Positions 2,672 through 35,466 of a stretch of 35,466 nucleotides of DNA are shown one piece after another. The stretch's first letter is position 1. Each line of letters begins with the position of its first letter. The notes under the pieces are model-generated. The model saw only the letters and a list, made by a program, of their open reading frames with translations. It was not told where the DNA came from and searched no databases. Location: positions 1 through 35,466 of IMG/VR virus record IMGVR_UViG_3300033407_000913; one strand, given 5' to 3'. The stretch comes from a virus. Taxonomy: Duplodnaviria; Caudoviricetes. Both the position numbers and the translations under genes were made by a program.

Positions 2672-2766
2672 AGTGAAGTGAGAAGTGAGAAGTGAGAAGA
2701 CCGAAGGGCCGTTTTTCTCTTCTCATTTCTCAATTCAATCTTCCCACTTCGGTCTTCTCTCTTCCC
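2672..2766. repeat. Dispersed ~90-bp element, copy 1
   Basis: (GAAGTGA)n followed by the core TCTCTTCTCATTTCTCAATTCAATCTTCCCACTTCGGTCTTC; 13-bp inverted repeat at 2694-2706/2747-2759. Confidence 0.95.
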
Positions 2767-5283: not shown

Positions 5284-5607
5284 CTACTTGGGTACGGCCG
5301 TTTCCGGCGGCGTGCTCTGCGCTACCTTGGCCCCCTGCTGCCCGATGACGGCGTTGCTCATGGCCTCCACCGCGTCGAGTTCCGTGAGGCTCTTGATGAT
5401 CGATCCTGTGGCGGCCTGCGAGATACTGATGCCGTTGGCCAGCGCGGTCTCGGCGATCATGTTCAGGCGGGTAAGGTGGGCGTTGACGGCGGTCTGGTAC
5501 GCCGAATGGCCTTCCATCGCCGCGGCCGCGTAGTGCGCGGGCGCCCCGGCCCCGACTTTCGTGTTTTCGTTTGCGACGCTGTCGAGGATCCCTTGATCTG
5601 ACGGCAT
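5284..5607 (-). CDS. RebB-like (R-body family-like) protein
   Basis: 107 aa, Ala/Gln/Ser/Thr-rich. ILDSVANENTKVGAGAPA parallels the Reb motif ITDAVTQxNxKVLGxAPA, and SQAATGSII parallels AQAATxxGV. Strong AAGGAGG RBS. Confidence 0.6.
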   Translation of the reverse strand: MPSDQGILDSVANENTKVGAGAPAHYAAAAMEGHSAYQTAVNAHLTRLNMIAETALANGISISQAATGSIIKSLTELDAVEAMSNAVIGQQGAKVAQSTPPETAVPK

Positions 5608-6081: not shown

Positions 6082-6160
6082 GAAGTGAGAAGTGAGAAGT
6101 GAGAAGTGGGAAGAGCAAAGGGCCGTTTCTCTCTTCTCATTTCTCAATTCAATCTTCCCA
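6082..6160. repeat. Dispersed element, copy 2
   Basis: GAAGTGA x3 plus GAAGTGG, then GGCCGTTTCTCTCTTCTCATTTCTCAATTCAATCTTCCCA. Confidence 0.95.
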
Positions 6161-6179
6161 TGCTTCCCATGTGCCGCCT

Positions 6180-6439: not shown

Positions 6440-6547
6440 AAGAGTGAAGTCAGAAGTGAGAAGTGAGAAGTGAGAAGCCTGAAGTGCGACCCCCCTTCTC
6501 TCTTCTCAGTTCTCAATTCAATCTTCCCACTTCGGTTTTCTCTCTTC
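6440..6547. repeat. Dispersed element, copy 3
   Basis: Heptamer run, then TTCTCTCTTCTCAGTTCTCAATTCAATCTTCCCACTTCGGTTTTCTCTCTTC; overlaps the 3' end of the upstream ORF. Confidence 0.95.
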
Positions 6548-7069
6548 ACGCTTTCGATATCGAGCCACGCAGGGGTCGGAAAGACCCAGCAGCTCCCCGA
6601 CCGCGCAGTGCGGCAACACCGGGTCGTTGACCAGCACGTCCGTGATCGTCACCAGTTCCAGTCGGATGGTCCGATTCGCAATCTGCTTCCCAAAAATATC
6701 AGGCAGCCAGATTTCCGCGAGTTCCGCCCGCCGTTTCCGCAAGTAGGCGGCCAGCGGCGAGCGCAGCGCCCAGTTCCATTTGCAGACCCTGGCCTTCGCG
6801 TCGTAGAGATCGGCGCCCCGGCAAAAACGAGCGTTTCCGAATTTGGCGGGCCTGCGTGGTTTATCGCCGAGGGCCGGCCACCACGGGAGCGGCAGCGGAT
6901 CGGGATCGAGCGGCGGAACGGATGGAGGATTCGACGCCGCTCCGCGTGATCGGACCGGCACGCTCCCAGCGGTAGCGGTTGTAATACTCGATGAGCCTTC
7001 CCGCGCGTTGTGCGGCCTGCTCCCCCAAAGCGCGGCGAACGAGACGGTAGGCCTCGGCTTTCGTGGCAT
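6518..7069 (-). CDS. Putative HTH DNA-binding protein (true start uncertain, likely downstream of 7069)
   Basis: C-terminal DPVLPHCAVGELLGLSDPCVARYRKR fits an HTH pattern (xVGELLGLSxxxVxRYR). The N-terminal part overlaps the end of the giant gene and looks like shadow sequence. Confidence 0.5.
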   Translation of the reverse strand: MPRKPRPTVSFAALWGSRPHNAREGSSSITTATAGSVPVRSRGAASNPPSVPPLDPDPLPLPWWPALGDKPRRPAKFGNARFCRGADLYDAKARVCKWNWALRSPLAAYLRKRRAELAEIWLPDIFGKQIANRTIRLELVTITDVLVNDPVLPHCAVGELLGLSDPCVARYRKREERKPKWED

Positions 7070-16000: not shown

Positions 16001-17930
16001 CGCTCGGTGGCATGGCAGGGGATGGGGCGGGCGGCCTGACGCCCGCCCCACGAGGAGGAACGCCCCCCTCGCTTGGTAGCTCTGGCGCTCCGGTCGTTTC
16101 CTCAACGTCCGGTAATAGATATTCTGTTGCTTTGGAAATTGTACGCTCTTGCTGAACACCCGCTACCGGTGGTGGTGGCGGGAAATAAGTTGCCGAAACC
16201 GGTGGTATCTCTTCCGTTCCCGGCGGCGGCGGTGCGGGTCTGGGTCGCGGCGTCTCGCGGAAGGCGTCTTTGGCCATCTCCGCAATCTGGCGGAGACGCT
16301 TTGGTTCCGGGGCCAGTGCGGCAGCACCCAGCGCCGCCCCCGGCGGGAGCATGAACCCGGCGAATTCAGCGGAAAGCTGATTCCAGCCCGGCCAGATCGG
16401 CTGCTGTTGCAGGGTGCTCGCGCCTCCCGCCGCTTCAATCGTCGCCTTGGCCGTCGATTCCATCAGCGTCGCGACCCGTTCCTCGCCGATCTCCTCGAAC
16501 GCATTGTTGACCCCGACCTCGCGCAGGTGGGCCCAGGCCACCTGAAACGTCGCGTACTTGCCGGGAAATCGGTTGACCAACTCGGCGGCCAGAGCGGTGC
16601 GCGTGCGGGCGATCCATTCACCGGAGCGCTCCAGCGGAACCGCGATCACCCGGGCCACGGGAAGCTTGGCGCCCCATTTGGCCAGGGCCATGCCCGCCCG
16701 CCCTACATTGGTGGCCGCGATGCCCAGGGCTTTTCCGGTGTATTCGCTGTACACCTGGATCACCGCGTTGATCGAGGAGTCGCGGAGGGCGCCCATGAAC
16801 GGCTGCCCGGATTCGGTGACCGCCGCGGCCAGGGCCTCGTCGTCTCCGGGCTGCACTTGGTAGCGGGGCAGCATGCGCCGGACGGTGTCTACGCCGGTCT
16901 GAAGAGCGATCGTGGGAATACCCCGCTGGACCGTCTCCGCTGCCGCATGTGTCAGGACGCGGGGGATGGTCTGTGTCGCCCCTTTCGCCGCCAGCTTCGT
17001 GAGGGCCTCCGCAGCGGCCTTGCTGAGCGTCTTACCTCCCACCCTCGCGGCTGCCGCTTTCGCCCCTTTTGCGACCAGACGGCCGACGCCCCCGCCCAGG
17101 GCCAACTCGCCCATGAAGGGGATGCTCTCCGCGGGAATGCTCGCCACGGTCCCGCCCCAGGTCTTGCCCCGGCTTTCGCGGGCGATGCGCTCCTGGAGCC
17201 CGGTCAGAACCTCAAAGTCGTCCGCGGTCCCCTCCCCCCGCGTCGTCCGCCCCAACGCCCGGTGGACCTTGACCAGTTCGGCCCCGGTCAGCGCATGCTC
17301 CACGTAAGGCAGCTTCTCCACCAGGCCGCGCACCGTCCCGAATTCCCGGCTAGTAACCTGGGTAAACGTTTCCGGTCCGGGTAGCTGGGTAAGCGGTTCG
17401 AGTCCGTAGCCCCGTCGAAAGACGTTTAGGAAACGGCGTTTCCCTTCTTCACTTTCCAGTTGCGCAAAGTAGGGATGTTCGCGGGCTTCGATCTCCGCCT
17501 GGGCCGCGAACGCACGCTCCGCGATCTGTTCCTCGCGCGTTTTTTTGGGCGGACCGCCGGTGAGGGTCTCGACCAGAGACCGCCCCATGCGTTTGAGCAG
17601 GCCGGGTTTTTCGGTGGCGGGACCGACCGGCGTGGGCGGTTCGGACGGTGTTCGGTAGGGTACGGTGCGCGCAGGCGGCCAGGGCGGCGGTGCGGCCGGG
17701 GTGGGTCCGCGGAAATCCGCCGGCGCCTGGTCGCCGCGCCCGAAGAATCCGTCGAGCATCCCCTCGTGGCTTCCGCCCAGAGGTTCCAGGGGGCGGATGG
17801 AACGCACCAGTTCTCCGACGGGTGCACGGTGGCCGTTGAGCGGGTTGATCGACTCAACCAGGGAACCCGGCGGGTAGCCGTGTTCGCGGGCGATGCTTTC
17901 TCCCGCCAGCTCCAGGAGGGGATCGGGCAC
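6861..17930 (-). CDS. Giant DarB-like polyvalent protein: N6-adenine methyltransferase + SF2 (SNF2-like) helicase with large N- and C-terminal extensions
   Basis: 3689 aa; GGAGG RBS. MTase motif I LEPSAGVGHF (14229-14258) and motif IV NVPF (14049-14060). Walker A AVGGGKT (12207-12227), DEAH (11721-11732), TGTP, GEGINAQ, motif VI QMVGRVVRSGN. Located right after the ejection genes. Confidence 0.92.
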   Translation of the reverse strand: MPDPLLELAGESIAREHGYPPGSLVESINPLNGHRAPVGELVRSIRPLEPLGGSHEGMLDGFFGRGDQAPADFRGPTPAAPPPWPPARTVPYRTPSEPPTPVGPATEKPGLLKRMGRSLVETLTGGPPKKTREEQIAERAFAAQAEIEAREHPYFAQLESEEGKRRFLNVFRRGYGLEPLTQLPGPETFTQVTSREFGTVRGLVEKLPYVEHALTGAELVKVHRALGRTTRGEGTADDFEVLTGLQERIARESRGKTWGGTVASIPAESIPFMGELALGGGVGRLVAKGAKAAAARVGGKTLSKAAAEALTKLAAKGATQTIPRVLTHAAAETVQRGIPTIALQTGVDTVRRMLPRYQVQPGDDEALAAAVTESGQPFMGALRDSSINAVIQVYSEYTGKALGIAATNVGRAGMALAKWGAKLPVARVIAVPLERSGEWIARTRTALAAELVNRFPGKYATFQVAWAHLREVGVNNAFEEIGEERVATLMESTAKATIEAAGGASTLQQQPIWPGWNQLSAEFAGFMLPPGAALGAAALAPEPKRLRQIAEMAKDAFRETPRPRPAPPPPGTEEIPPVSATYFPPPPPVAGVQQERTISKATEYLLPDVEETTGAPELPSEGGVPPRGAGVRPPAPSPAMPPSGAESLVQTIPAQGERDAVEEGMRPQDRFEERPGDEKGLAPAGPGGGRGAERLPTEAQEKEISPETGTEAQRHRGTEISLPSSRRIRVRAEDLNPGDRIPGLARTPVVVDSVETTPEGARVTDVHGWEWDLEKRDFYVDRPETPRETEEAIRETEGAIPETEGAIRETSREEVGLRPPPGTAPDDQGAGTGEAGAVGVAGVTKKVDAAGDTGPVASAIVRLAGGFVRSLRPDEQVSDADAMASHEPWAEAMYNVLTAPRFADLPEKMRSLLYPQNRKTRALYERLTGRKLPRSLRATIRFLEELPPALPDSGQLHAALNQWEGITQTAAQSSTKSPKPTTIKQETDLERPTEQPVERRRGEEPAEQPGAGGGARAEGQPAEAAPGAEGGGPRAPVGVGETARGGKGDRGAGVQGGAGRGSLRTGGEPVSRPARGAVGVEGAEEKLPAHTAEKGGLTDYVVRDPDDLFAAGKNPAKTIFRRNVEAIRLVKRLKEEGRAATAKERDILSRYQGWGSVPQPFDPGAAWDRATGWHDEYETLEELLSDEEWKAARQSTQNAMYTPPAIISALWETLERMGFSGGAVLEPSAGVGHFLGLQPLHLADASRRVAVEKDDTSAAILHALYPASDIRHSPFENALLPKNYFDVAVGNVPFGDLLIHDRRYPKWLRRRIHDYFFVRALDLVRPGGLAVFISSKGSMDKLDGRVRAYIAARADLLGAVRLNEDSLPGTKVTADILFLRKRAEGEPAGGEAWLESKPYAALPGKHINEYFQTHPEMVLGEIKPGSRHAGGEEGATATIVAAREGFDLATDLRAALATLPGDVFGRREAELATLDTIAASIPTPDGLPQGTYFVREGQLRRAGRKGEASEEVESSIRADRGDKAVERLKGLIGLRDRLLELLRASIDPAGDERLPGLQKSLNDEYDRLGRRGVTPIHASANAELLADDPLTLSLLGSIEEYDRKTKKAAKGDVFTRRILEAYRRPTSAATAADALSISLDEFNRIDLRRIAELLNTDEDGARGRLIREGAAFPLPAGEVVSTADYLSGNVRAKLEEARALLKVDKATYQGNVDALVAVQPADLPASRIRAVLGAPWIPAETIEDFLVSLIGQGAARSVSVRRSPATGRWTVSAPHYANDRWGTRDYSPGELLADALNMKTPKVTDKTPDGAVFTDQAASDAARSKLEEIRAHFETWIWSHAHWGPKLLADYNEQHHNWVPTKYDGGHLTLPGSNPSITLRGYQKDGVYRVLSSPHNTLIYTAVGGGKTFTATAAAMEVIRLGLARKVVVVVARKTLNQFIKQARQLYPGGRFVALSTKDLAGKARGRTLARVALAEKTVFILPHEQFKALPVSEATLEEFYGEAISDLEDAIGEGAKDDSKAGKRSVKQMEKMRDNLRAQLQDRVGAVRKLDVLPFEELGLDWIIYDEAHKGKNLQYTTQMENIRGLGPREGNQITLDLYMKARYVSRLQNGRGVTFLTGTPVNNSISEIYAMMRYLIPDVLKSEQIASFDDWVRWFAVGAPDLERVAGRYKMVTRLRRFQNLRGLHALWDKIAHPTPQEELDRVLLSKEGGVPVVRENSEGKRTFELVVLPVSAAQRKYQKVIAGRVEAIRARGGRPPQPGDDIMLTVIGDEKKAALDMRLIYPDLPEEPGGKLAAAAEKVIEIYKETAAERLTQMVFLDLGNPGSRMPFSTYQDFIGKLVAGGVAARDIATIYDAKDNDAAVEALLAAFNRGDIRVLIGSKKKMGEGINAQERAVALHQLEPAWEPGTLTQMVGRVVRSGNRNREVRLYRYVTKGMSDEFMYSLLAAKQKVNNDFLSGRIDADEIEDVDLHTMAFQMAMAESSENKAVLEWTKAEHELRRLQGEARYHRDTQLALRSKEALLKSEAGRLAALIAPGRKFVEWVAKLEPAVPFVMQVGQETYQRHGEAGTALFKASAAFQEKETRTVGAFRGLRVTLARDIAWASREQRLALGIEFPPDAAAHEKFAKDVGLPLRRVLTWSASQEPTAGQLRSWVTGFAHALDEVTGEGWARDLAQNKEKLAEVRTEIGRPFARQEEMERLAARVSAMSNQIAAAAEQNANQGDGHVAELGAEDADVEEPREGGEGEGGGAAGDTPWFGPRQESLLPEHLTPEEREWMRQNWHRPLLGMGAMSGGMPGPTTVRQKLWSAYARNWDRIAARLKHMKTPAGQRYMDSIARLLWGAEWKIEGNREFLLDDLRGGKGTQRRLAEDMAGALAGVLSEKRATQIGKPWPPDAWQMIRQTAIAVMEGGHRSPDTLPRDIAEAWDQHVKPLRDAEGETVPRRISPLLGREEHDEALGRQMAVVDEALTAARKTGRYVVRRMPLTAWDAFTATEHRLLIDVARGKRDWGLLSDDLKAWVAAYKSASNALTDEILKDPMLLKAAKSGGLVNWEQIVRMRRESGRAFLTSRYHMHRDDAGEHSFGPLTFSTELAAPRIPIGMLREKRADNLWTVTLARGQVMQFSDEQSAIEFAENERLRWHEYFGESVKERVRVKKPFSAKQVEWLGPVEDIGLLAVASLTHMRAFIDGVRVFHQLAQTEAMEEVAYLELPEEEKHHWRRLDANPGLGPLADKYVSEELFYNLNEFRLTMNGLLAGSWRALLTAFRSAHVVYNPATWFRQIYGQHYFWTLLGMNPYTHRDLFIDAFRRVLGGLEDSTYRRLSRMNAMHGGYDREKLRKSILPMLDTPTTDVMAVLARLVEAAKEGARIAGRGYGLLDEVSVMAVWIHDVEQQGHPESFARDRFKYLQNYSKLGIAARFLRNFPLGDPFVAFSDQALKITAKGMREHPGRVLAFYAFPYVLNAVTRLVFGVTDDEMAILNTDRQRHTWADRYFQPVAFRDGRGRVRTLDLRWIFPLANDFRVATGPGGFGVPFLLNQPLARPLLEVMFNRSEWTGRDLSSSSEGLALWEAASHVAWQSAPIPSLGQRGALRLYRAVRGESDEEFIPVLLKEVFGISITRRYATKAEAYRLVRRALGEQAAQRAGRLIEYYNRYRWERAGPITRSGVESSIRSAARSRSAAAPVVAGPRR
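14696..14965 (-). CDS. Nested out-of-frame gene, TnpV-like small helical protein
   Basis: TTG with AGGAG 7 nt upstream. LGREAVRVLRDSRPKLHRELKEAGRV...EAYEQVASQYLDLPEE resembles the TnpV-type pattern YGRxxxxxLKExRPxxYxEL..GxL...AEExV. Confidence 0.7.
   Translation of the reverse strand: MSDQPNSPSNDEEAKSRLNNLGREAVRVLRDSRPKLHRELKEAGRVHLWAWEKQRAAARAIGELVSRGVPGEEAYEQVASQYLDLPEEQ
14983..15011 (-). promoter_or_regulatory. Internal sigma70-type promoter for the nested gene
   Basis: TCGACT-N17-TACGAT directly upstream of TAAACAGGAG, in a locally AT-rich patch. Confidence 0.5.
15502..15572. repeat. 21-bp in-frame coding repeat (RETEEAI/RETEGAI/PETEGAI/RET)
   Basis: Visible in both DNA and translation of the giant ORF. 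Confidence 0.85.
15774..15805. repeat. (CTCTGTGC)4 octamer repeat inside the giant ORF
   Basis: Four perfect 8-mers. Confidence 0.95.
15818..15955 (-). CDS. Nested out-of-frame gene, 45-aa basic MPLKKG-type phage protein
   Basis: ATG with AAGGAG 6 nt upstream. MPLKKGCDRKTVSKNVREMKKAWRPQDQAVAAALS matches the pattern of a common small phage protein (MPLKKGxSxKTISxNI..M..GxPQxQAVAIALS). Confidence 0.75.
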   Translation of the reverse strand: MPLKKGCDRKTVSKNVREMKKAWRPQDQAVAAALSGCPPKPKKKK

Positions 17931-25965: not shown

Positions 25966-26000
25966 GTCGTCCCCCGAACAGCAGGCCGTGCCAAAGAAAG

Positions 26001-26624
26001 CTACGTCGACTGTCGCCCCGAAAGGCTGGTAATCTTACGGTGACCCCGGAGCTCCACGGCCACCAGCTTCAGCTCGTCGGCGCTGGCCGTGCCGCTGCTG
26101 GTCAGCGTCACCGCCAGGGCCACCAGGGCGTCGGCGATAAAATCTTCGTTGTTCGCGTCCAGGGCGCCGAGCTCACCGGCGACGCTCAGGCTTGCCCATT
26201 CGGTCGCGGTGAGCACGCTGGCCGTGCTGGTCATGGTCTTATCCGCAAAGGTGACCGAGCCGTCCGGCGTCACCTTCGCATCCCCGATGACCTGCCCCAC
26301 GTCGATCCCCTTCGCGGCCAGCGACCAGGAGACGCCGGTATCGGCGTCGGTGCTGGTCGATTCGAAAAGCAACCGCGCCTGGAGGTCCTGTTCCAAATCG
26401 AAGTCGTAAGCCCGCAACGACAGGGCCGTGTAGATGTCGTCGCCCGTGGCCATCGAAATGCCCTCGAGCTCGGAGGCCGCCGCCAGTTCGGCGATCTGCC
26501 CGCCGACCCCCAAACTAGTACCGTCGGCCGCGATCCCCGTGAAGTGCCGCGCGGGAATGTGCACCTCGGCGTATTTCAAGCTGAGTCCGCTGTCCTGGTG
26601 GCCGCCACCCGGTGGGTTCGCCAT
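26001..26624 (-). CDS. Putative capsid-associated (decoration/cement) protein
   Basis: Directly after MCP; acidic, beta-rich, 207 aa; AAGGA RBS. Confidence 0.65.
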   Translation of the reverse strand: MANPPGGGHQDSGLSLKYAEVHIPARHFTGIAADGTSLGVGGQIAELAAASELEGISMATGDDIYTALSLRAYDFDLEQDLQARLLFESTSTDADTGVSWSLAAKGIDVGQVIGDAKVTPDGSVTFADKTMTSTASVLTATEWASLSVAGELGALDANNEDFIADALVALAVTLTSSGTASADELKLVAVELRGHRKITSLSGRQST

Positions 26625-26674
26625 AAGTCACGTCCTTTCGCAATGATTGCATGATTTCTCGCTCGTTGCCGGGT

Positions 26675-27922
26675 CTACGCGACCACCGGCGTTGCATCCA
26701 GGTCCGTAATCACCGCCTGGGTGTTGGGGGCGCAGCACACCGGCTGGAGGTAGCGAGACCACGCGGCCTCCATCGCGTCCTTGCCCGGCACGCGGCAGAG
26801 GATCGCGCCGTCCTCATCGATCCAGTCGCCCTCGCTATCCTGGAACAGTTCCCAGTGCGCGGTATCCAAAACATACATTTTGGTGGGATCGCAGTGCTTG
26901 TCTCTCACGATGGGCTTGTCATCGAACATGATCGCGGTGGCCCAGCCGTTGAGCTTCTTGGTGCTGTTCTCGATGCGCCGCGCGGCCACCAGCTCGTTCA
27001 TCAACTGCCGGAACACTTCGTACCCGCAAATGATGAGATTGGGATGCCCCGCGGAGTAGCGTTCCACCTGGTCGCACGCTTCGGATATGAGCGGAAAGTT
27101 GATCCGCCGCGGAGCGCCAGCGTTGTTCAGCACGTTCCCCTGCCAGAATTGATTGGCCCCCAGCGTCCGGTCCAGCCCCCCGTAGTTGCCCAGCGGGGGA
27201 TTGGCGGTGCTGATCGCCGCGTCCAGCCCGAGCACCGCGTCGTTGTACGATGCGTTTTCGTACAGCGCGTAGGTGGTGGGAGCGGCGTTCACTCCGGCGC
27301 CGGTCCCGTCCGCGAACTGCTTTCCGCCCACGATGGTGCACAGTTTCGTCTGGGTGTTGACCCTGATCGTCGCCCCGCGCACGCCCGCGCCGTCCGCACC
27401 GCTGGCAATCAACAGGACGTCATAGCGGGCGCCGTCGTCGATGCCGCGCACGTCGTCCACGGTGAACGTGGTGGCCGAAGGCGCGGTCACGATGCTCGCG
27501 ACCTTTCCCGACCCGTCTCCGAACAGGTGAAAGTTGAGCATGTGCCGAAGCTGCTTGACCAGGTTGCTCGTTTCCAGGTCATACACGCGGGCCTCGGCGG
27601 AGACCGGGACGTTGGACGACGAGTGCATCATCGCCCGGGAGATGCGGATCTTCCCGTACATGCGCGCGTAGTTGAATTGCACGCGCTCGACCTTCTGGTA
27701 GTCGCTGTCCGGGATGTCACCCGCGGAACTGAATCCGCGCCCGCCGCTCTTTCCCGTGTGCAGGGAGATCGAGATTTGCGACCCTTCCGCGAAACTCGAC
27801 GTGGTGTTCCGCGTGAGGTACTGGAGCAGGATGCTCATCAAGTTGAATTGGCGGCGCATCTTCGGGCGGTACACCGTCCGAAGCAGCGCGGCCTGGGTGG
27901 TTCGATTGGCTTCATTGGCCAT
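26675..27922 (-). CDS. Major capsid protein (HK97 fold)
   Basis: 415 aa after the scaffold. YARMYGKIRIS, LVKQLRHMLNFHLFGDGSG, PNLIICGYEVF, FDDKPIVRDKHCDPTKMYVLD and PNTQAVITDL are typical MCP segments. Confidence 0.9.
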   Translation of the reverse strand: MANEANRTTQAALLRTVYRPKMRRQFNLMSILLQYLTRNTTSSFAEGSQISISLHTGKSGGRGFSSAGDIPDSDYQKVERVQFNYARMYGKIRISRAMMHSSSNVPVSAEARVYDLETSNLVKQLRHMLNFHLFGDGSGKVASIVTAPSATTFTVDDVRGIDDGARYDVLLIASGADGAGVRGATIRVNTQTKLCTIVGGKQFADGTGAGVNAAPTTYALYENASYNDAVLGLDAAISTANPPLGNYGGLDRTLGANQFWQGNVLNNAGAPRRINFPLISEACDQVERYSAGHPNLIICGYEVFRQLMNELVAARRIENSTKKLNGWATAIMFDDKPIVRDKHCDPTKMYVLDTAHWELFQDSEGDWIDEDGAILCRVPGKDAMEAAWSRYLQPVCCAPNTQAVITDLDATPVVA

Positions 27923-28053
27923 GAGACGTCTCTCCTGGGGACGTCTCCAGCCGCCCGCGATTTAAGCCCCTTCGAGTCCGGCCGCACACTGGAGTGTGGG
28001 CCAAACTCTATCCCGGCGGACCTCGTTTGCACCCGAGGCGGGGCGGTTTCTGG
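27923..28053 (-). promoter_or_regulatory. Structured MCP leader
   Basis: GAGACGTC/GACGTCTC stem encloses the AGGAG RBS directly before ATG; further stems CCTCG/CGAGG and GGCC-CACAC/GTGTG-CGGCC. Confidence 0.5.
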
Positions 28054-28749
28054 TTACACCGTCACGCCGCGCTGTTTGCGCAGCATCGTCTGGGCCTTCC
28101 GGCTATAGATCGTATTGAGCTCGTGGTCGGTCATGGCGAACGCCTTTTCGTTGGGCATGCCGCACACCGAGCCGTCGAAGTCGTCGACCTCTTCCGCGTC
28201 GTTGGTGGAGGCGTCTGAGCGCCCGCCGCCCTTGCCCGTGTCCACGGCCTTCTGCTCGTTATCGAGGCGTTTTTCTGCCGCCGTCTTGGCTGCGGCCTTG
28301 GAGGCGTCAATCTTTTTGAGCCGCCGATCGCATTCCTTCTTGGCCTCTTCGGCCAGGGCGGCCTTGGTCTGCTCGAAGTTTAGCGTGGCGATGTCGGCGC
28401 GCGAGCGAAGGGCCCTGGCCGCGGCGGATTCGATTTGCTCGACGTCCGTGGGATCGTCCTTGAGCGCTTCGTAGCTCGATACGACGCCCTTGACGGCTTC
28501 CTTCAGGTCCCGCGCCCCCAGGGCGGCTTCGAAGCGAAGCTCCATTCGACGGACCAATTCCCCCTCTTTCTCCTTGCTCGCGGCGCCGTCCGCCCGCGGC
28601 GTGGCCCCTGCCCGCCGGGCGTTCTCCTGGGCGCGGCGGAGGACCTCTTTCGGCGGCAAACCGCTGTTGCGGATTTGCTGGACCGCGTCACGCTCCTCCG
28701 GGGTCAGTTCGTCGTCGCCAAGACCTTCTTCGTCGGGTTCGTGGGGCAT
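28054..28749 (-). CDS. Capsid scaffolding protein
   Basis: ATG 28749 with AGGAG; acidic N-terminus, charged coiled coil, short C-terminal helix; between portal and MCP. Confidence 0.8.
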   Translation of the reverse strand: MPHEPDEEGLGDDELTPEERDAVQQIRNSGLPPKEVLRRAQENARRAGATPRADGAASKEKEGELVRRMELRFEAALGARDLKEAVKGVVSSYEALKDDPTDVEQIESAAARALRSRADIATLNFEQTKAALAEEAKKECDRRLKKIDASKAAAKTAAEKRLDNEQKAVDTGKGGGRSDASTNDAEEVDDFDGSVCGMPNEKAFAMTDHELNTIYSRKAQTMLRKQRGVTV

Positions 28750-28781
28750 CGTTACGTTCTCCTGCGCCTCTGAAAGTTCTG

Positions 28782-28856
28782 CCGGGCGCCGTCCGGGCGC
28801 CGTCCGGGCGCCTTGATTCTGCCACGTTTCCAAAAGAAGGCAAGATATCCTGCCTT
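28782..28856 (-). promoter_or_regulatory. Putative promoter/operator for the scaffold-capsid genes
   Basis: TTGCCT-N16-CAGAAT with extended TG. Near-perfect 20-bp palindrome AAGGCAAGATATCCTGCCTT (28837-28856) overlaps the -35. 11-bp repeat CCGGGCGCCGT x ~3 at 28782-28812. Confidence 0.5.
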
Positions 28857-28862
28857 GATGCG

Positions 28863-31145
28863 CTACCCTCCAACCCCCGCCGGCGGCACGCGCATCGCCG
28901 GCATGGCCCTGCCGTTGCCTGGAATCGGCGCTGCCGGCGCGGCTCCGGGCGGTGGTTCCGCACCAGGCGGAGCACCGCTCGGGGGCCTGACCCCCAATGG
29001 TGCGATCCGCTGGAGATACTTCGCCACCCAAGCCTTCATCGCCTCCGGCTGCATCTGCTTGAGCATCATGTTGAACAGGTGCTCGTAGACATGCGTCCAG
29101 TACGCCAGACCGATCGTCTTGTCGGCCTCCACCGCGGTGCGGTAGCGCGCCGTCGTCGACTGCCGCTCGTGTTCGCGGATGTGCGTTGCATCGTCGTCTC
29201 CGAACGCGACGCGGACCTTGGCCCGCTCCTGCGGGGAGGCGAGCAGCACTTCGTTTTCCCGGGCCGCGTTGGAGCGGTGCTCGGCGGCTTCGTCGGTTTC
29301 GGGCGGCACCTGTTCGTTGATCCAGCGGAGCAGGGTGGCGCGGTGGGCTTCGTTCTTTGGGTCCATGAGGCCGATTTCGACCGTCCCGCGGATCAGTTCC
29401 AGGACCTCCTTCGGATCGCGCTGCTTACCCAACACGCAGCGCACGTTGGCCGAATGCGGACCCACCGGCTTGCGACTCATCAGTGAGCGGCCCTTGAACG
29501 TGAGCACCTGGTACTCGCCGCGTTCGCCCAGAATTCCGAGCGTCCGATCGTCCTCGTAGAACTCCCAGATCAGCGCCGCCAGTTGGGAACCGACCTCCGA
29601 GGCCGCCTCCTCCACCAGGGTGCGCGTCGGACCCGCGACCAGTTGGTCCCCCGCCTGCATCGCCAGGGCGTGCTTGCCACTCTGGCTCGCGCCCTCCGAC
29701 TGGCCCATGCTCGAACGATGGATGTTGGCCACGTCCTCCATGTCCCGCGTATCCGCCTGGTCGATGCGATCCATGAAGGCCGGCGGCGGCGGTAACTCGA
29801 GCGCTCGCACCTTGTTGATGCCGTCGTCCTTCATGGAGATCACTTTGGGCCACTTGCTCATCGCGTCTTCGGGGAAGCCGCTGCCTTTTTCGGCCATGAT
29901 CCGCGGGTCGATCACGAAGCGAAGATACCCAGCCAAAAGGCTGCGTGTTTGATTTCGATTACGCTGGAGGCTCATCAGATCGCGGATCGTGCACGGCGGA
30001 CGGAAACTGTCCGCGTCCGGGATTTCCGTGAACCGAACCAACGGAATGCGCCCGTGCACATAGGGATGGGCGGTTTTCTTCAGCACTCGGTTGCCGCCCA
30101 CGATTCCAAGGAAGCCTTGCGGACAGACCCCGTGGATGCGCGGTCGCCAGAGTTCGTGGATCAGGACGTCTTCCGGCGTGCCCTCATTGGTTACCTCGTC
30201 GGTCTGACGCCTGCCGAAGTCCGCTTCGTAGCGGTGGTGCCGCCGATATTCCTCCGCGGAGCTCGGCGCCAGTTGCCTGGCGGCCTCACCGTAGCGCTGC
30301 CGGCACCATTCCAGAGAGCGGAACCGCGAGACCATCATCCACGGCGCGCTGTGCACGTTTCGGGCGTGCAGGGGTTCGGTGACGTCGAAGCCGCTCAGCC
30401 ACTCGATGTCCACCTCGCCCTTGGGCAGGCGAATGCCCCCGTCCTCCAGTTCGACGCTCTCCGGCGACGCCTTCCGCTTCTCGGCCACGAAGCCGCGCAG
30501 GCGCTGGGTCCAGGATTTCCGGGTCTCCGGGCTATCCTCTTCACCGTCTTCGCGCATCATCTCCGCGTCGAACACGTCGTCGCCGCCGGCGAAGGGATCG
30601 AAGGTGACCCGCGCGCACACGAACCCGGTACAAAACAGTATCCAGGCCGCTTCCAGTAGCTTCGACTGGTTGTGCAGGTGCGACGCGCCCATGTAATGAC
30701 CGACCAGCTTGCCCAGGGTGCGAGCGTTGGCCACGTCGTCGTTGTCGTTGGTCTGCGGGTAAGCGTGGAAGGTGAGCGGACCGCCGAAGGTGAGGGCGAT
30801 CTGCGCGAGTACGAAGCCGCGCAACCGATTGATCGTGATCGGTTGTCGCTGCTCCAGGGGAAGATCGGCGTCGTCACCGCCCCCGTCGATGAGCTGGTGT
30901 CGCTCGTCGCTCCAGACGAGGTGCTGATGCCCCTTGGCCCAGGCCAGTTGCACCGCCGCGTCGCGCTCCCACTCGTAGCGCCGCGCCTTGCCTGTGCGGT
31001 ATTGATGGGCTACGAAGCCGAGCAGCTCGTCGTCGGAGACTTTCCCCGGCCGGGTCCAGTTGATCTGGTGGGCGGCCATCGAACCGCCGCCGTCCTCGTC
31101 GACCATTCTGGCTTGGATTTCGTCGGGGACCTGTTCTCGAATCAT
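28863..31145 (-). CDS. Portal protein (P22-like)
   Basis: 760 aa. ITINRLRGFV, HPYVHGRIPLVRF, DLMSLQRNRN and SMGQSEGASQSGKHAL are typical podophage portal segments; ATGA overlap with the upstream gene. Confidence 0.9.
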   Translation of the reverse strand: MIREQVPDEIQARMVDEDGGGSMAAHQINWTRPGKVSDDELLGFVAHQYRTGKARRYEWERDAAVQLAWAKGHQHLVWSDERHQLIDGGGDDADLPLEQRQPITINRLRGFVLAQIALTFGGPLTFHAYPQTNDNDDVANARTLGKLVGHYMGASHLHNQSKLLEAAWILFCTGFVCARVTFDPFAGGDDVFDAEMMREDGEEDSPETRKSWTQRLRGFVAEKRKASPESVELEDGGIRLPKGEVDIEWLSGFDVTEPLHARNVHSAPWMMVSRFRSLEWCRQRYGEAARQLAPSSAEEYRRHHRYEADFGRRQTDEVTNEGTPEDVLIHELWRPRIHGVCPQGFLGIVGGNRVLKKTAHPYVHGRIPLVRFTEIPDADSFRPPCTIRDLMSLQRNRNQTRSLLAGYLRFVIDPRIMAEKGSGFPEDAMSKWPKVISMKDDGINKVRALELPPPPAFMDRIDQADTRDMEDVANIHRSSMGQSEGASQSGKHALAMQAGDQLVAGPTRTLVEEAASEVGSQLAALIWEFYEDDRTLGILGERGEYQVLTFKGRSLMSRKPVGPHSANVRCVLGKQRDPKEVLELIRGTVEIGLMDPKNEAHRATLLRWINEQVPPETDEAAEHRSNAARENEVLLASPQERAKVRVAFGDDDATHIREHERQSTTARYRTAVEADKTIGLAYWTHVYEHLFNMMLKQMQPEAMKAWVAKYLQRIAPLGVRPPSGAPPGAEPPPGAAPAAPIPGNGRAMPAMRVPPAGVGG

Positions 31146-31291
31146 CGTTTCGACTTCGCCGGCTTCATCACGCTCTTTTTCGCGGCTTTGTCAGTGCTCT
31201 TCTTCTTCCCGTTCTTGGGGGGAAGAACCGGAAGATAGGCCTTCTTAAGCGCCGCGCTCTGCGTCTCTCGATTGGCTTCGTTTCCGTACAT
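31142..31291 (-). CDS. 49-aa Lys-rich peptide with MCP-like N-terminus (internal start)
   Basis: AAGGAG at 31299-31304, ATG 31291; NEANRETQSAALKKAYLP versus MCP NEANRTTQAALLRTVYRP. Confidence 0.65.
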   Translation of the reverse strand: MYGNEANRETQSAALKKAYLPVLPPKNGKKKSTDKAAKKSVMKPAKSKR

Positions 31292-31507
31292 TGCATGACT
31301 CCTTCGGTTAATGAATCGGTTCCACGTCTCGAACTCTTCCAACGATTGCAAAATCGACGACACTTCGTCCACGCTTCGCAGCACATACCTCGCGCCGCAC
31401 GTCGGACACCCCGGCGCGCCGATCAATAGAGTATTGCAGGCGCAATGGAAGGCCTCTGTGCCCCCCATTGCGTACAAGCGCGGCGATGCGGACGTGGCGT
31501 TCAACAC
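31142..31507 (-). CDS. Zn-ribbon-like protein with basic C-terminal part
   Basis: CAC...CPTC motif; contains an in-frame internal start at 31291. Confidence 0.5.
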   Translation of the reverse strand: MLNATSASPRLYAMGGTEAFHCACNTLLIGAPGCPTCGARYVLRSVDEVSSILQSLEEFETWNRFINRRSHAMYGNEANRETQSAALKKAYLPVLPPKNGKKKSTDKAAKKSVMKPAKSKR

Positions 31508-31516
31508 CGCCGCTTT

Positions 31517-31610
31517 GTGCCTCCGGGAAGAGTGAAGTCAGAAGTGAGAAGACCAAGGGGCCGTTTCTCTCTTCTCATTTCTCAATTCAATCTTCCCACT
31601 TCGGTCTTCC
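31517..31610. repeat. Dispersed element, copy 4
   Basis: GAAGAGTGAAGTCAGAAGTGAGAAGACC...CCGTTTCTCTCTTCTCATTTCTCAATTCAATCTTCCCACTTCGGTCTTC. Confidence 0.95.
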
Positions 31611-31613
31611 CCG

Positions 31614-32468
31614 TCAGTGGCCCGCGCCCCAGGCATGTCGCCGGAACCAGGCCGAGGCGAACAGCTTGCCGGCCGTGTACGCGGCGGGGAGGACAAACCC
31701 GATGGCAAATCCGCTGCACGCTTCTTTCCAATCCACCCACAACGTCTCGCGCACCACGGGGAGTGCCGAGGTATCGAACACCAGGCTGCGAAACGGCTGC
31801 GTCGATCGATGGGCGATCACGCAGTTGCGCACGGTGTACAAATTCACCTGCACGTCGCCGGGCAGGGTATCGGGGTAGATGGTCACGTCGTCGATGGCGC
31901 CGGAAACGCTCGCGCTGGGCAGGAAGGTGAAATCTACGTCGTCACTGATGATCTGCTCGGCGAATACTCCGTTCGTGCTCCGCGCCGCGCCGGCCGTCGT
32001 ACCCAGACGCAGCGTAAACGATCCTCCGCCGGCGACGTCCGAAACTCGAAAACTCGTGTTATACGTCTGGGGAGCAATCAACACGCCGTTCTGACCGGCG
32101 ACGCCGATCGACGCGCTTGGTTTGCGGCGCAGCTTGTGATTTACCCAATCGATCGACCAGCCGGTTTCCGTAAAGAGCCAGGGTGAAGCGGGTAACGCTT
32201 CCTGGGCGGCAATGTTCGGACCGCCGGGGGCCGCAGGCGTCGCCAGCACGTTGCGTTCGATGGTCCCGTCGTCTGCGGCGTTGGTGTCCAGCAGCAGGAA
32301 CAACTCGCAGCCGATATGGGCCAGCCGGTTGTTGTAGGTTCCCAGGCGGTTTTTCAGGATGGGAATCAGGTCCAGGGGGAGAGGACAAAATTGTTCCGTA
32401 TCGCTGACCACCAGGCGGTCGAGGCACCGAATCCAACCCCCGTCGAGCGCAACCGGCGACTCCATCAT
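31614..32468 (-). CDS. Hypothetical virion protein with central CBM/jelly-roll-like segment
   Basis: GWSI...YNTSFRVSDV..GSFTLRLG...NGVFAEQI...GAIDDVTI resembles galactose-binding-like modules; start overlaps the TerL stop. Confidence 0.65.
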   Translation of the reverse strand: MMESPVALDGGWIRCLDRLVVSDTEQFCPLPLDLIPILKNRLGTYNNRLAHIGCELFLLLDTNAADDGTIERNVLATPAAPGGPNIAAQEALPASPWLFTETGWSIDWVNHKLRRKPSASIGVAGQNGVLIAPQTYNTSFRVSDVAGGGSFTLRLGTTAGAARSTNGVFAEQIISDDVDFTFLPSASVSGAIDDVTIYPDTLPGDVQVNLYTVRNCVIAHRSTQPFRSLVFDTSALPVVRETLWVDWKEACSGFAIGFVLPAAYTAGKLFASAWFRRHAWGAGH

Positions 32469-34195
32469 CGTGCGTCCTTTCGTCGCCGCGCCGCGATGAG
32501 CCGGCGGGCGTAGTCGGCCAACGTGCGATCTTCCAGGCCCGTGGTCACCGAGCCCCCGCCTCCGCGAGCCGCCCCCGCGAGCCGTTCGCGGGTTACGGGA
32601 ATGATTTTGTCGATGTTCCGCGACCCTTCGATCAGGGCTGACACCTGGCGGATGCCCTCCAGTGTCTCGATCAGCGGTTTATCGGTCAAGTCTTTCCCCT
32701 CCTGTTTGCGACGAATCACCTTGTGCCCGCGACAGGGGATGTCGTTCACGTTGTAGGTGGCGATCGCTTTCGCCCAGGATCGGTCGGCCACGGTACCCGC
32801 GTATTCCTCCCCCTCGTCCGCGCGCCACCAGACGGTGCGAACCTCGGGCGGCGCCGGCTCCCAACCGCTGAGGCGATGAATCTCCGCGATCTCGTTCATA
32901 ATGTTCCAGCCCTTCTCCACGGAGTGCAGTTGGTAAAACTCGCGATAGACCCAGACCAGGCCGGTCAGGTTGAACGTGGTCACCGCGTAGCGAATCGCAT
33001 CACACGTGTGGTCGTCCTTCTTCAGCGGGCGGTCCGGTCGGTCCTCGTCCCAGCGATAGGCGAAGAATTCGCGGATCGTGTTCGGACACGCCTTGCTCAC
33101 CAGCAGGCCCGAAGGTCCCGGGACGTGCACCAGCCAGAGCACCACGAAGGGCGAATCGCTACTTCCCCAATCGATCGCCCGGTAACGCTCCGCGTTGCGC
33201 GGCAGGCGTGCGATGTCGCCCACGTGGGGATGGGAACGGAACAACGGGTAGACCCGACCGCTCGCGTGTTCCCACGCCTCCTGGGGCGTCTCCGGGTGCT
33301 CCTGCTTCATACGCACTGTGGAGATGGCGCCCAATTTGCGGGCCTCGGCCGCGTACCAATCGCGGTCCCGCCCGGGTCGCGCGCTCCAGTGTAAAAAGAT
33401 GGGCTTGAAGCCGTTGGGACCGCGTCCGTCGGCGCGGACGGCTTCCCCGTCGTCTCCGAATGCGCCCTTCCAGCACTCCCAGAAATAACCCTGAGGACCG
33501 GCGCTCGAGCTGAGGGCGACGATCTGCCCTCCCGCGGACTCCACGGCCGGCTGAATGGCCGTCATCGTGTCCGCGAGGTCTGGAATCCGGCTGGCCTCGT
33601 CGAGGATGGCCAGATCGATCGTCATGGACCGACCCGCCTTCTGCCCGCCCACGATCGCACGCACCAGAATCTGATTGCCCCCCGCTCGAAACTCCAGGCT
33701 CTTCTTGTTGCGCGTGGTCAGTTCCTTCTGCAACCACGGAGGAAGGCGGTCGTACATGGAGAGCACGCGGTGTATGAAATCTTCCGCGTACTCGCGCTGC
33801 TGGTTGATGATGATGATTGTCAGTTGCTTGCGGTAGACGATCAGCCAGAGCACATACGCGACGTGCAGCCAGGTGAGCCCCAGCTGCCGACCCTTGAGCA
33901 AAGCCAGCCAGACCCCGGCGACCAGGTCGCCGGTGACCGAGCATTGTCCGGGCCACAGGCGCATCGGGATATCGGAACGAGTCTCGCGGTCGTAGATCAC
34001 CCCGAACTGTTCGCAGAACAGCTCAAACCCGGCGGCCCCGTGTTTGGGGTGGCAGCCCCAGTATTGTTCGGCTTGCGCGTCGTCGAGAAGTCGGGCGTGG
34101 GCCGTCTCGACCCTCCCCAACAACACTTCCCCAGCGGCTTTCAGGCCGGCGGTCAGCGGATTATGAACCAGCGTTTTGTTCCACGGGAAGGGCAC
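32465..34195 (-). CDS. terL: Terminase large subunit
   Basis: Walker A LKGRQLGLTW, Walker B AILDEAS, coupling motif SSS; nuclease motifs AIDWG, TVADRS and KDDHTCDAIRY. Confidence 0.93.
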   Translation of the reverse strand: MPFPWNKTLVHNPLTAGLKAAGEVLLGRVETAHARLLDDAQAEQYWGCHPKHGAAGFELFCEQFGVIYDRETRSDIPMRLWPGQCSVTGDLVAGVWLALLKGRQLGLTWLHVAYVLWLIVYRKQLTIIIINQQREYAEDFIHRVLSMYDRLPPWLQKELTTRNKKSLEFRAGGNQILVRAIVGGQKAGRSMTIDLAILDEASRIPDLADTMTAIQPAVESAGGQIVALSSSAGPQGYFWECWKGAFGDDGEAVRADGRGPNGFKPIFLHWSARPGRDRDWYAAEARKLGAISTVRMKQEHPETPQEAWEHASGRVYPLFRSHPHVGDIARLPRNAERYRAIDWGSSDSPFVVLWLVHVPGPSGLLVSKACPNTIREFFAYRWDEDRPDRPLKKDDHTCDAIRYAVTTFNLTGLVWVYREFYQLHSVEKGWNIMNEIAEIHRLSGWEPAPPEVRTVWWRADEGEEYAGTVADRSWAKAIATYNVNDIPCRGHKVIRRKQEGKDLTDKPLIETLEGIRQVSALIEGSRNIDKIIPVTRERLAGAARGGGGSVTTGLEDRTLADYARRLIAARRRKDAR

Positions 34196-34272
34196 AGGTC
34201 TAGGTCGCTAGAGCGGGTCGCGGTTGCACTTGAACCTCCATGCGGCGCCTCCACTGGCGCCAGGTGGTTCGG

Positions 34273-34542
34273 TTAATTGCTGTCGGTCAAGCCGTTCAGC
34301 CCCTCCATGACCTGCTCCGGCGTCACTGTGACGTGCACCTTCTTTTTCCCCGTTGCGCTGATGCACGGGATGCAAAGCGGCTTAACCCCCCTCTCGATCT
34401 GCGCGCGCGAAACGCCCTCAGCCACCCAGACCCAAACGCCGCACGACGCACACCGCTCCTTTCTCGAAGGCAACCAGGGCCGCGAACGATCCGAAACCGG
34501 CACGCACAGTAGAAACTGAATTTCCGTTTGGTTTTTCATCAC
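34273..34542 (-). CDS. Small Zn-finger protein
   Basis: CASC...CIPC motif. Confidence 0.75.
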   Translation of the reverse strand: MMKNQTEIQFLLCVPVSDRSRPWLPSRKERCASCGVWVWVAEGVSRAQIERGVKPLCIPCISATGKKKVHVTVTPEQVMEGLNGLTDSN

Positions 34543-34601
34543 CCAACCCTGTCCGCGTCATGCCCCGCGGCGCATTCTCGCGTTGCAAGATATTCCACTT
34601 C

Positions 34602-35081
34602 TTATTCTTGCTCCTCCGGCATCGTGTCGATCGTCCGCCCGGTGCGTTGCTCGCGCTTCAACTCCTGGCGAAGCTCAAGGAGTTTGTTGACCCCCTCGAC
34701 CTGCATGGCGGCGGCGCCGAGGCTCGACTCCGCGACGTAGCGGCGCACCCGCGTCTCCTCACTCGCCTGCACCGCGCGCATGGTCCTGGCCAGCATCGCC
34801 CCCGTCTTGGCCGCGTTCCCTTCTTTGTGTAGCGCGGCGAGCACTTCGGCGCCGACCCTGTCGAGCAGGGCCACCGTCTGCGGGTAAATCGGGGTGTGTG
34901 CCGCGTCGCCCAGCTTGCGACTCTCCTGCACGACCGCGGCGTAGAGTTTGCCGAGATTGACCCCGGGCATGGCGATCAATTCGCGGAGCTCCGCCTTTCG
35001 TTTGCGGGCCGACTGCGTCGGACGCCGCCCGCGGCCGCCCACCGACCCCTTGCGTTTCCTTTTTTTAACGCCCTTCTCCAC
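34602..35081 (-). CDS. Hypothetical protein, candidate terminase small subunit
   Basis: Basic N-terminus (GGRGRRPT), helical body; two genes upstream of terL. TerS call is positional only. Confidence 0.45.
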   Translation of the reverse strand: MEKGVKKRKRKGSVGGRGRRPTQSARKRKAELRELIAMPGVNLGKLYAAVVQESRKLGDAAHTPIYPQTVALLDRVGAEVLAALHKEGNAAKTGAMLARTMRAVQASEETRVRRYVAESSLGAAAMQVEGVNKLLELRQELKREQRTGRTIDTMPEEQE

Positions 35082-35465
35082 CTAACCCTCGTGCGCGCCT
35101 TGTGGCTGGTCGCAAGCGGCGTAACCCTCCGAAGGCTTGGGCGGCTTTGCCCATTCTTCGAGCAGGTCCTCGCGGACGAATTGCAACGCGAGGCCGTTTT
35201 GCTGCACCGCGGCCATCACGACTTCGGGCGTCTGCTCGCGGACGAATCGCAACGCGAGGCCGTCATTCTGCACCGCGGCCATCACGACTTCGGGCGTCTG
35301 TTCCAGGACGTATTGCAACGCGTAGCCGTCATTCTGCACCGCGGCCAGCACCACCTCGGGCGTCTGTTCCAGGACGTATTGCAACGCGAGGCCGTTTTTC
35401 TCCACCGCGGCCAGCACGACTTCGGGCGTCTGCTCGCGGACGAATCGCAACATGTAGCCGTCTCG
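35082..35465 (-). CDS. DUF4116-like 22-aa repeat protein (5' truncated)
   Basis: Tandem ALQYVLEQTPEVVLAAVQNDGY-type units with 66-bp period; frame open to the window edge. Confidence 0.85.
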   Translation of the reverse strand, partial: RDGYMLRFVREQTPEVVLAAVEKNGLALQYVLEQTPEVVLAAVQNDGYALQYVLEQTPEVVMAAVQNDGLALRFVREQTPEVVMAAVQQNGLALQFVREDLLEEWAKPPKPSEGYAACDQPQGAHEG

Positions 35466-35466
35466 C

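What the first reader, a model, noticed from the sequence alone, without database searches (positions are those of the whole stretch)
31142..31304. Microprotein carrying a copy of the major capsid protein N-terminal arm
MYGNEANRETQSAALKKAYLP aligns without gaps to MCP MANEANRTTQAALLRTVYRP: 11 of 18 identical from NEANR, with 12 identical nt GAAGCCAATCGA. It continues into a Lys-rich histone-like tail (KNGKKKSTDKAAKKSVMKPAKSKR), has its own strong RBS and is coupled to the portal gene. Inference: an N-arm mimic that docks on the capsid interior, portal or scaffold and presents a DNA-binding tail, or a capsid-targeting tag. The longer in-frame isoform would add a Zn ribbon.
Basis: partly seen in the sequence, partly recalled or inferred. 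Interest (0 to 1): 0.8.

Follow-up and report, generated by a model that had tools for sequence, protein, structure and literature searches.

The report
Capsid-arm copy on basic microprotein
An uncultured phage encodes, right before its portal gene, a 49-residue lysine-rich protein that begins with a copy of the first helix of its own capsid protein, and the copy likely docks the peptide inside the assembling virus head.

Summary
Observation confirmed. The 49-aa ORF (31142-31291, minus strand) has a strong RBS and gene-like codon use. Its residues 4-21 match the major capsid protein (MCP) N-arm helix at 11 of 18, far beyond chance. Two distant homologues keep the core and a basic tail: one in a sister phage (L001, 10 of 12 residues although silent sites are near saturation) and one without context (P0042). 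In both the likeness to MCP is only borderline. Most relatives have other small basic genes in this slot, without the copy. Fine co-variation with each phage's own MCP is not shown, and there are no expression or virion data. Best reading (0.45): a dispensable internal head peptide whose arm copy docks it in the procapsid while its tail binds DNA. The short form is likely the main product, and it likely also couples portal translation. The Zn-ribbon long isoform is open but has a poor start. Ten literature searches found no description; the closest are T4 capsid-targeting sequences and Milano LP2. This scan has noted the same architecture on other DNA many times, and I confirmed the T4 gp61.1 case.

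The parts
31142..31291 (-). 49-aa microprotein gene: arm copy plus Lys-rich tail
   Evidence: codon score 0.40 against an in-frame mean of 0.33 and an off-frame mean of -0.49; held as a 49-aa protein in the collection
31299..31304 (-). Shine-Dalgarno AAGGAG, 7 nt before the ATG, in a weakly folded region
   Evidence: -3.9 kcal/mol around the start
31229..31282 (-). copy of MCP residues 3-20 (N-arm helix), microprotein residues 4-21
   Evidence: predicted helix 5-19 at low confidence
31145..31228 (-). Pro linker and Lys-rich tail, predicted disordered (whole protein: 14 K+R, 3 D+E)
31292..31468 (-). in-frame upstream Zn-ribbon-like reading frame (possible long isoform of 108 aa); a related frame is in frame in L001 and a separate gene in L082
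   Evidence: codon score -0.06, GC3 0.69
31441..31472 (-). 13-bp hairpin that buries the long-isoform ATG (31468)
   Evidence: -26.8 kcal/mol for the 60-nt window
28863..31145 (-). portal gene (P22-like); its ATG has no SD and overlaps the microprotein stop
   Evidence: start supported by homologues
27863..27916 (-). source segment: MCP N-arm residues 3-20
   Evidence: helix 7-28 in the AlphaFold2 model
26675..27922 (-). major capsid protein, HK97 fold, phrog_14242; nearest solved folds are cyanophages Mic1 and A-1(L)
28054..28749 (-). putative scaffolding protein (by position between portal and MCP and acidic N-terminus); candidate partner
   Evidence: no family hit, so the assignment is inferred
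32465..34195 (-). terminase large subunit, upstream border of the slot

Best explanation
The gene encodes a 49-residue basic peptide whose first 21 residues copy the capsid protein's N-terminal arm helix, and the copy likely docks the peptide inside the procapsid so that its lysine tail would face the packaged DNA. Shown: the gene, the copy, its retention under protein-level selection in a sister phage, and a slot between terminase and portal that holds small basic genes in 11 of 14 related phages. Inferred steps: (1) the 5' end of the MCP gene was duplicated onto an older small basic gene in the ancestor of this subclade; (2) the peptide is made late from its own RBS, and the ATGA overlap likely drives portal translation in this phage; (3) the helix binds a partner of the real arm, most likely the coat-binding tail of the scaffold or the arm groove on the inner face of the P-domain; (4) the tail neutralises DNA charge near the wall. 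It is probably dispensable.
For: Copy far beyond chance. It maps on the start of the predicted N-arm helix 7-28, and the peptide is itself predicted helical at 5-19 (mean pLDDT 62). Window against L001: 10 of 12 core residues identical, with 7 identical, 3 synonymous and 2 non-synonymous codons, while four-fold sites of MCP, TerL and portal are only 44-55% identical and the tails share little beyond K/G/P composition. A third member, P0042 residues 40-76, matches the window's MCP arm at 11 of 18, keeps Y and P, and has a K/G tail. A profile of the three peptides alone finds the MCP start of G001 (E 0.0013). All three peptides score best against the window's MCP arm among 26, and 4-6 of their top 7 matches lie in the same MCP clade. 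The N-arm helix binds the scaffold C-terminus in phage 80alpha (PMC5644958, passages). Short N-terminal sequences load proteins into T4 and P1 heads (PMC9026906, PMC9024508, passages). A 38-aa copy of another capsid protein's N-terminal strand occupies quasi-equivalent sites in phage Milano (PMC10491603, passages). T4 gp61.1 copies the gp23 N-terminus (score 82, 0 of 10,000 shuffles).
Against: Only three members were found. The likeness of L001 and P0042 to MCP arms is at background level on an MCP profile (12.7 and 12.8, against up to 12.4 for chance hits in 12 other sequence sets). L001's match to its own MCP is reached by 66 of 150 shuffles. There is no fine co-variation: the L001 peptide scores 37 against the window's MCP and 32 against its own. 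Positions fixed in the peptides are not the most conserved in 26 MCP arms (permutation p 0.51); MCP L13 is Asn in 2 of 3 peptides and Y18 is lost in L001. The peptide profile matched only 1 of 9 related records (1 of 5 at least 90% complete), and that one supplied a row of the profile. No copy was found in the 14 kb held for L082, whose MCP is 76% identical. No virion or DNA-binding data exist.
Confidence: 0.45

Rival explanations
1. Assembly patch or modulator: the free arm copy fills arm-binding sites left empty at the portal vertex (about 5 copies), or competes with MCP for the scaffold to tune nucleation. The tail is secondary.
For: The gene is coupled to portal in the window. The portal vertex lacks penton N-arm contacts and is compensated by rearranged arms and extra proteins in P74-26 and crAss001 (PMC12407722, PMC10172136, passages).
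Against: In L001 the gene lies about 1.1 kb and several genes upstream of portal. Most relatives build heads without the copy. The basic tail is shared with slot genes that lack the copy.
Confidence: 0.18
2. Relic duplication in a translation-coupling leader: the ORF is kept to drive portal translation or as a plain basic peptide, and the capsid-like residues bind nothing.
For: The portal ATG has no SD and overlaps the stop. The copy is decayed in L001. There is no concordance with MCP conservation. Distribution is patchy.
Against: 10 of 12 residues are kept, with 3 silent changes, across near-saturated divergence. A third member keeps the motif. L001 is not coupled to portal.
Confidence: 0.15
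3. The functional product is the long form: a Zn-ribbon domain carried into the head by an internal arm copy and basic tail. The 49-aa form is a by-product of an internal start.
For: The upstream frame is open and in frame in both window and L001, with weakly gene-like codon use. L001 was called as a 90-aa protein (P0032). One silent variant in the upstream frame (31355) occurs in two runs. Upstream frames also run in frame into the slot gene in L002, L004, L007 and P0042.
Against: The window's long ATG has no SD and sits in a 13-bp hairpin, and the GTG at 31507 lies at the edge of a repeat element. The first knuckle is degenerate. The Zn-ribbon gene is separate in L082. P0042 has a different upstream sequence, so the motif travels with the internal start.
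Confidence: 0.12
4. Decoy for a host immune sensor that recognises the MCP N-terminus.
For: Free-standing capsid fragment with patchy distribution. Capsid-sensing defences exist (recalled, not checked). The idea comes from an earlier scan note (e1-10026090).
Against: The gene lies in the late head operon. The basic tail has no role in a decoy. A decoy should track its own MCP closely, and L001's does not.
Confidence: 0.06
5. The shared element is a DNA or RNA signal (GAAGCCARTCGR) near both start codons, such as an operator for translational control, and the protein likeness follows from it.
For: The 12-mer pattern occurs in both genes of the window and both genes of L001, and in no other phage among 113 loci. 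The Arg codon is CGA in both window genes and CGG in both L001 genes.
Against: The pattern was derived from those four sites, so the count is circular. Identity continues as amino acids with silent differences for 14 more codons. P0042 differs at two of the four residues involved. The two 5' leaders do not align.
Confidence: 0.04

Closest known systems
T4 internal proteins IPI/IPII/IPIII with the capsid-targeting sequence (CTS); P1 DarB N-terminal packaging signal (PMC9026906, PMC9958956, PMC9024508; passages read)
   Same: [quoted passage not shown]
   Different: The passages read do not describe the CTS as a copy of the MCP N-terminus. The CTS is removed by a prohead protease, and none was detected in this head module. 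Loading is shown by experiment there and untested here.
T4 gp61.1 (54 aa, annotated hypothetical; NC_000866)
   Same: A small gene that copies the N-terminal region of its own MCP (gp23 residues 57-93; score 82, 0 of 10,000 shuffles) and carries a Lys run.
   Different: No homology to the window's peptide (score 30). It copies a region deep in the gp23 precursor, around the maturation site (recalled), is net neutral (10 K+R, 11 D+E), and lies beside the primase gene. Its function is unknown too.
Agrobacterium phage Milano linking protein LP2 (gp128, 38 aa; PMC10491603, passages read)
   Same: A previously unannotated mini-protein similar to the N-terminal strand of another capsid protein, seen by cryo-EM at quasi-equivalent sites.
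   Different: It copies a linking protein (LP1), not the MCP; it binds the externally placed minor capsid protein through disulfides.
Small basic head-operon genes phrog_33179 (L003, L008, L009) and phrog_2423 (L106), both of unknown function
   Same: Same slot between terminase and portal, 45-55 aa, 13-18 K+R.
   Different: No arm copy; the window and L001 peptides match neither profile.
Scaffold/CpmB binding to the N-arm helix in phage 80alpha (PMC5644958); portal-vertex proteins PVP of P74-26 and gp57 of crAss001 (PMC12407722, PMC10172136); Patience gp4 (PMC11965321); passages read
   Same: They show that the N-arm helix is a docking surface, that vertex contacts can be replaced by accessory proteins, and that small proteins can lie beside the arm.
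   Different: In the passages read, none is described as a sequence copy of the MCP arm.

Membership tests
T4-type CTS-bearing internal proteins | about 10-aa N-terminal propeptide removed by a gp21-type prohead protease | tested here: not met
   no protease family hit among 26 ORFs scanned, and portal-scaffold-MCP are adjacent; a very divergent protease is not excluded
T4-type CTS-bearing internal proteins | N-terminal segment sufficient to load cargo into heads | not testable with these tools
   needs a fusion experiment
T4-type CTS-bearing internal proteins | non-essential and patchily distributed among relatives | tested here: met
   found in 1 of 9 related records; essentiality itself untested
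T4 gp61.1-like proteins | sequence homology to gp61.1 | tested here: not met
   local score 30, driven by Lys and Pro
T4 gp61.1-like proteins | architecture: small free-standing copy of the own MCP N-terminal region plus a Lys run | tested here: met
phrog_33179 / phrog_2423 small basic proteins | match to the family profile | tested here: not met
   no hit for the window peptide at E 0.01 or for its long form and L001 at E 1
phrog_33179 / phrog_2423 small basic proteins | size, charge and terminase-portal slot | tested here: met
Milano LP2-type quasi-equivalent mini-copy | mini-protein similar to the N-terminal segment of another capsid protein | tested here: met
   (the source here is the MCP)
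Milano LP2-type quasi-equivalent mini-copy | bound at the equivalent site in the virion | not testable with these tools
   needs cryo-EM or cross-linking
Portal-vertex auxiliary proteins (PVP, gp57) | folded domain resolved at the unique vertex | tested here: inconclusive
   the model shows one helix and coil only, pTM 0.22; location untestable

The most novel reading that the evidence does not exclude
A copy of the MCP's first helix is a portable, genetically encoded docking address. Unrelated HK97-fold phages have repeatedly duplicated the 5' end of their capsid gene onto small basic peptides to load them, and any fused domain such as the Zn ribbon here, into the head through the sites that take the real N-arm. 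That would give tailed phages a detached version of the basic N-terminal arms with which many other viruses bind their genome, and an 18-residue tag that needs no protease.
Probability: 0.3. Interest if true: 0.75.

Novelty: new variant of a known kind. Interest (0 to 1): 0.5.

Why it matters
How accessory proteins are addressed to phage heads is largely open; the T4 review read here (PMC9958956) calls the localisation mechanisms mysterious. A tag copied from the capsid's own arm suggests a simple rule, and this case shows its likely origin: a clade-limited duplication grafted on a slot that holds plain basic peptides in sister phages. It is testable with three genes (MCP, scaffold, peptide) in E. 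coli, and T4 gp61.1 offers a cultured counterpart. If it works, it is a short cargo tag for protease-free HK97 shells. The value of this one locus is limited: the phage is uncultured, the family has three members, and no function is shown.

Tried and rejected
Complex prediction of MCP residues 22-415 (27-row alignment) with peptide residues 1-32 (3 rows): no answer, score 0.00, controls not folded; not used either way. No RNA holder listed among 13 runs. Contigs of 8 runs laid: near-identical strains only, with two variants in the open frame (31170 V to A in the tail; 31355 silent, upstream part); too few to test selection. One search's 'no-self' profile still held the window's MCP by my error and was replaced. 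Six MCP starts that were missing or mis-anchored (L012, L036, L052, L060, L070, P0024), and any without the anchor motif, were left out of the profiles. Scanning each of 87 loci with its own MCP start found no non-self score above 41 outside the window's own contig, and is too blunt to see L001 (37). Word-based protein searches found nothing for the long form (3 candidates) and only a 98% variant for the short form. The profile search of 1.84 billion representatives gave 13 hits: 3 family members and 10 long proteins (769-2731 aa) that I did not examine. Pattern scans of viral contigs: 1 hit (L001), 0 hits, and 6 hits of which one is L001 and five are chance. Single-sequence portal and terminase scans and both genome-contig scans found nothing. 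No tblastn match in 50,697 phage records. ESM Atlas gave nothing usable. No sigma-70-like promoter in 26000-35466. Chance likeness rejected. Other capsid-piece copies in slot genes: none among the 9 other slot genes, L004 reaching 5 of 150 on a low-complexity match. The resemblance of P0042's upstream part to L004's W-rich frame is weak (54 of 5000 shuffles; L008 638 of 5000). L096 was looked at but left out of the slot count because it showed no MCP hit. One paper id was guessed wrongly and was irrelevant; three further papers had irrelevant passages. No supplementary files were read, so virion proteomics tables could bear on gp61.1-like proteins.

Full report
Setting. The window is a 35.5-kb phage contig (65% GC; near-identical DNA in soil and sediment metagenomes). 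Its minus strand carries terminase large subunit (32465-34195), a 284-aa gene, the microprotein, a P22-like portal (28863-31145), a putative scaffold, the major capsid protein (MCP, 26675-27922, phrog_14242), an SU10-type adaptor and a 3689-aa DarB-like protein. The MCP models well (pLDDT 86.5) with a first helix at residues 7-28, and its nearest solved folds are cyanophage Mic1 and A-1(L) capsids. No prohead protease was detected among 26 ORFs scanned.

The ORF at 31291-31142 has AAGGAG 7 nt upstream in an open region and gene-like codon use (0.40; real frames 0.33, wrong frames -0.49), and the collection holds it as a 49-aa protein. Residues 4-21 match MCP residues 3-20 at 11 of 18. None of 20,000 shuffles reached the score, and it is the best non-self match among 70,820 six-frame 18-mers (56, next 37). 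Profiles that exclude the window's clade give the same answer. With 20 mid-distance MCP arms it ranks 2nd of 70,832 (23.7, next 6.5). With 48 distant arms it scores 14.4 against 14.5 for the MCP itself. The DNA likeness does not extend into the leaders, so the duplication looks old.

Relatives. L001 (IMG/VR, MCP 79% identical) has a homologue in the terminase-portal interval with its own AAGGAG and a K/G tail. Ten of 12 core residues are identical, with 3 silent and 2 replacement codons, while four-fold sites in three head genes are 44-55% identical. That points to selection on the peptide. A profile search gave a third member, P0042 residues 40-76 (E 7.5e-4). It matches the window's MCP arm at 11 of 18, follows the residues KEDT that could encode an RBS (inferred, no DNA available) and runs on into a signal-peptide-like sequence; it has no genomic context. 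All three peptides score best against the window's MCP among 26 arms, and their top matches lie mostly in the strongly supported clade of window, L001, L082, P0002, P0003 and P0006.

Results against a tight mimic. The L001 and P0042 peptides score at background level on an MCP profile (12.7 and 12.8; chance hits up to 12.4 in 12 other sequence sets). L001's best target among 13 nearby ORFs is its MCP, aligned start to start, but 66 of 150 shuffles do as well. It resembles the window's MCP more than its own (37 against 32). Peptide-invariant positions are not the most conserved MCP positions (p 0.51), and hydrophobic L13 is Asn in two of three. The peptide profile matched 1 of 9 related records, the one that supplied a row. 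L082, inside the clade, shows no copy in the 14 kb held of its 45 kb.

The slot. In 11 of 14 terminase-portal intervals examined (picked by eye; none seen in L005, L010, L105) there is a small basic ORF of 24-75 aa. Three belong to phrog_33179, and L106 also carries a phrog_2423 member. Only window and L001 carry the arm motif. The simplest history is an old, replaceable basic peptide to which one subclade added the 5' end of the MCP gene.

Long isoform and coupling. The frame upstream (31292-31468) is open, weakly gene-like (-0.06, GC3 0.69) and related to Zn-ribbon frames in L001 (also in frame) and L082 (separate gene). In the window its ATG lacks an SD and is buried in a 13-bp hairpin, and the GTG at 31507 sits at the edge of an intergenic repeat. 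The 49-aa form is therefore likely the main product. The portal start has no SD and overlaps the stop as ATGA, so translational coupling is likely here, but not in L001, where the gene lies 1.1 kb from portal.

Mechanism. In phage 80alpha the N-arm helix is where the scaffold's C-terminal helix binds (PMC5644958, passages). In P74-26 the arm helps to secure pentons and is rearranged at the portal vertex (PMC12407722, passages). A free copy could bind the scaffold or a vacated arm groove and so ride into the procapsid, with its 28-residue Pro/Lys tail facing the DNA. I give this 0.45, a vertex patch or assembly modulator 0.18, a relic or coupling leader 0.15, a functional long fusion 0.12, an immune decoy 0.06 and a nucleic-acid signal 0.04. 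Every step after 'gene with a selected copy' is inference.

Comparison with what is known. It would work like the capsid-targeting sequences of T4 internal proteins and P1 DarB (PMC9026906, PMC9958956, PMC9024508; passages), but it is not a member: no protease was found, and the tag is a copy of MCP. Milano LP2, a 38-aa copy of another capsid protein's N-terminal strand seen at quasi-equivalent sites, is the best structural precedent (PMC10491603, passages). Following an earlier scan note, I confirmed that T4 gp61.1 copies gp23 residues 57-93 (0 of 10,000 shuffles); it is unrelated in sequence to this peptide. Ten full-text searches (listings seen, passages read in 11 papers, open-licence papers only, no supplements) found no description of an MCP-arm copy on a basic microprotein. 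Earlier notes of this scan report the same architecture in several other phage groups; none matched this DNA or these proteins by sequence. They are unchecked leads, not support.

Verdict. A real, selected, clade-limited feature, best filed as a new variant of head-targeted accessory peptides. The family is small, two of three members are weak mimics, and function is untested. Interest 0.5.

Noticed in passing
window 2675-2757, 6089-6171, 6458-6540, 31527-31609: Four copies of an 83-nt intergenic repeat (66-93% alike to the reference copy) built from GAAGTGA-like units. Similar sequence occurs on otherwise unrelated contigs in soil and sediment runs, so it may be a host-type dispersed repeat that could point to the host.
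   Followed up: partly
L002 5150-5415, L004 4153-4665, L007 5860-6084, L001 5210-5725, P0042, window 31142-31468: In six cases the small basic gene is the in-frame end of a longer open frame with an internal RBS-like motif, while the upstream part differs (Zn ribbon or W-rich). In L003, L008, L009 and L082 it is out of frame. This may be a recurring two-start design.
   Followed up: partly
window 6861-17930 (-): 3689-aa DarB-like protein (phrog_10089, methyltransferase-like and helicase regions). It carries no arm copy by profile scan.
   Followed up: partly
window 5284-5607 (-): 107-aa ORF with a weak RebB (R-body) hit, E 0.006, below the family cut-off, with a clear RBS.
   Followed up: no
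window 35082-35466 (-): DUF4116 protein made of 66-nt tandem repeats, cut by the contig end.
   Followed up: no
window 31614-32468 (-); L003, L009, L082: Unannotated 270-285-aa gene directly after terminase, conserved at 38-43%; shorter relatives of its C-terminal part sit in the same place in L002, L004, L005, L007 and L008.
   Followed up: no
window 27905-27945 (-), MCP start: The MCP RBS lies in a predicted hairpin that includes the start codon (-19.8 kcal/mol for the 60-nt window), which could regulate capsid translation.
   Followed up: no
P0042: The arm-copy peptide runs in frame into a signal-peptide-like sequence and a further domain of about 90 residues; either a true fusion or two genes read as one.
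   Followed up: no
L142 2167-2331 (T4 gene 61.1) and L143 446-2011 (T4 gene 23): T4 gp61.1 residues 2-38 align without gaps to gp23 residues 57-93: a cultured counterpart for bench tests.
   Followed up: yes
window 1-194: Two 95-nt direct repeats, 99 nt apart, at the contig start.
   Followed up: no
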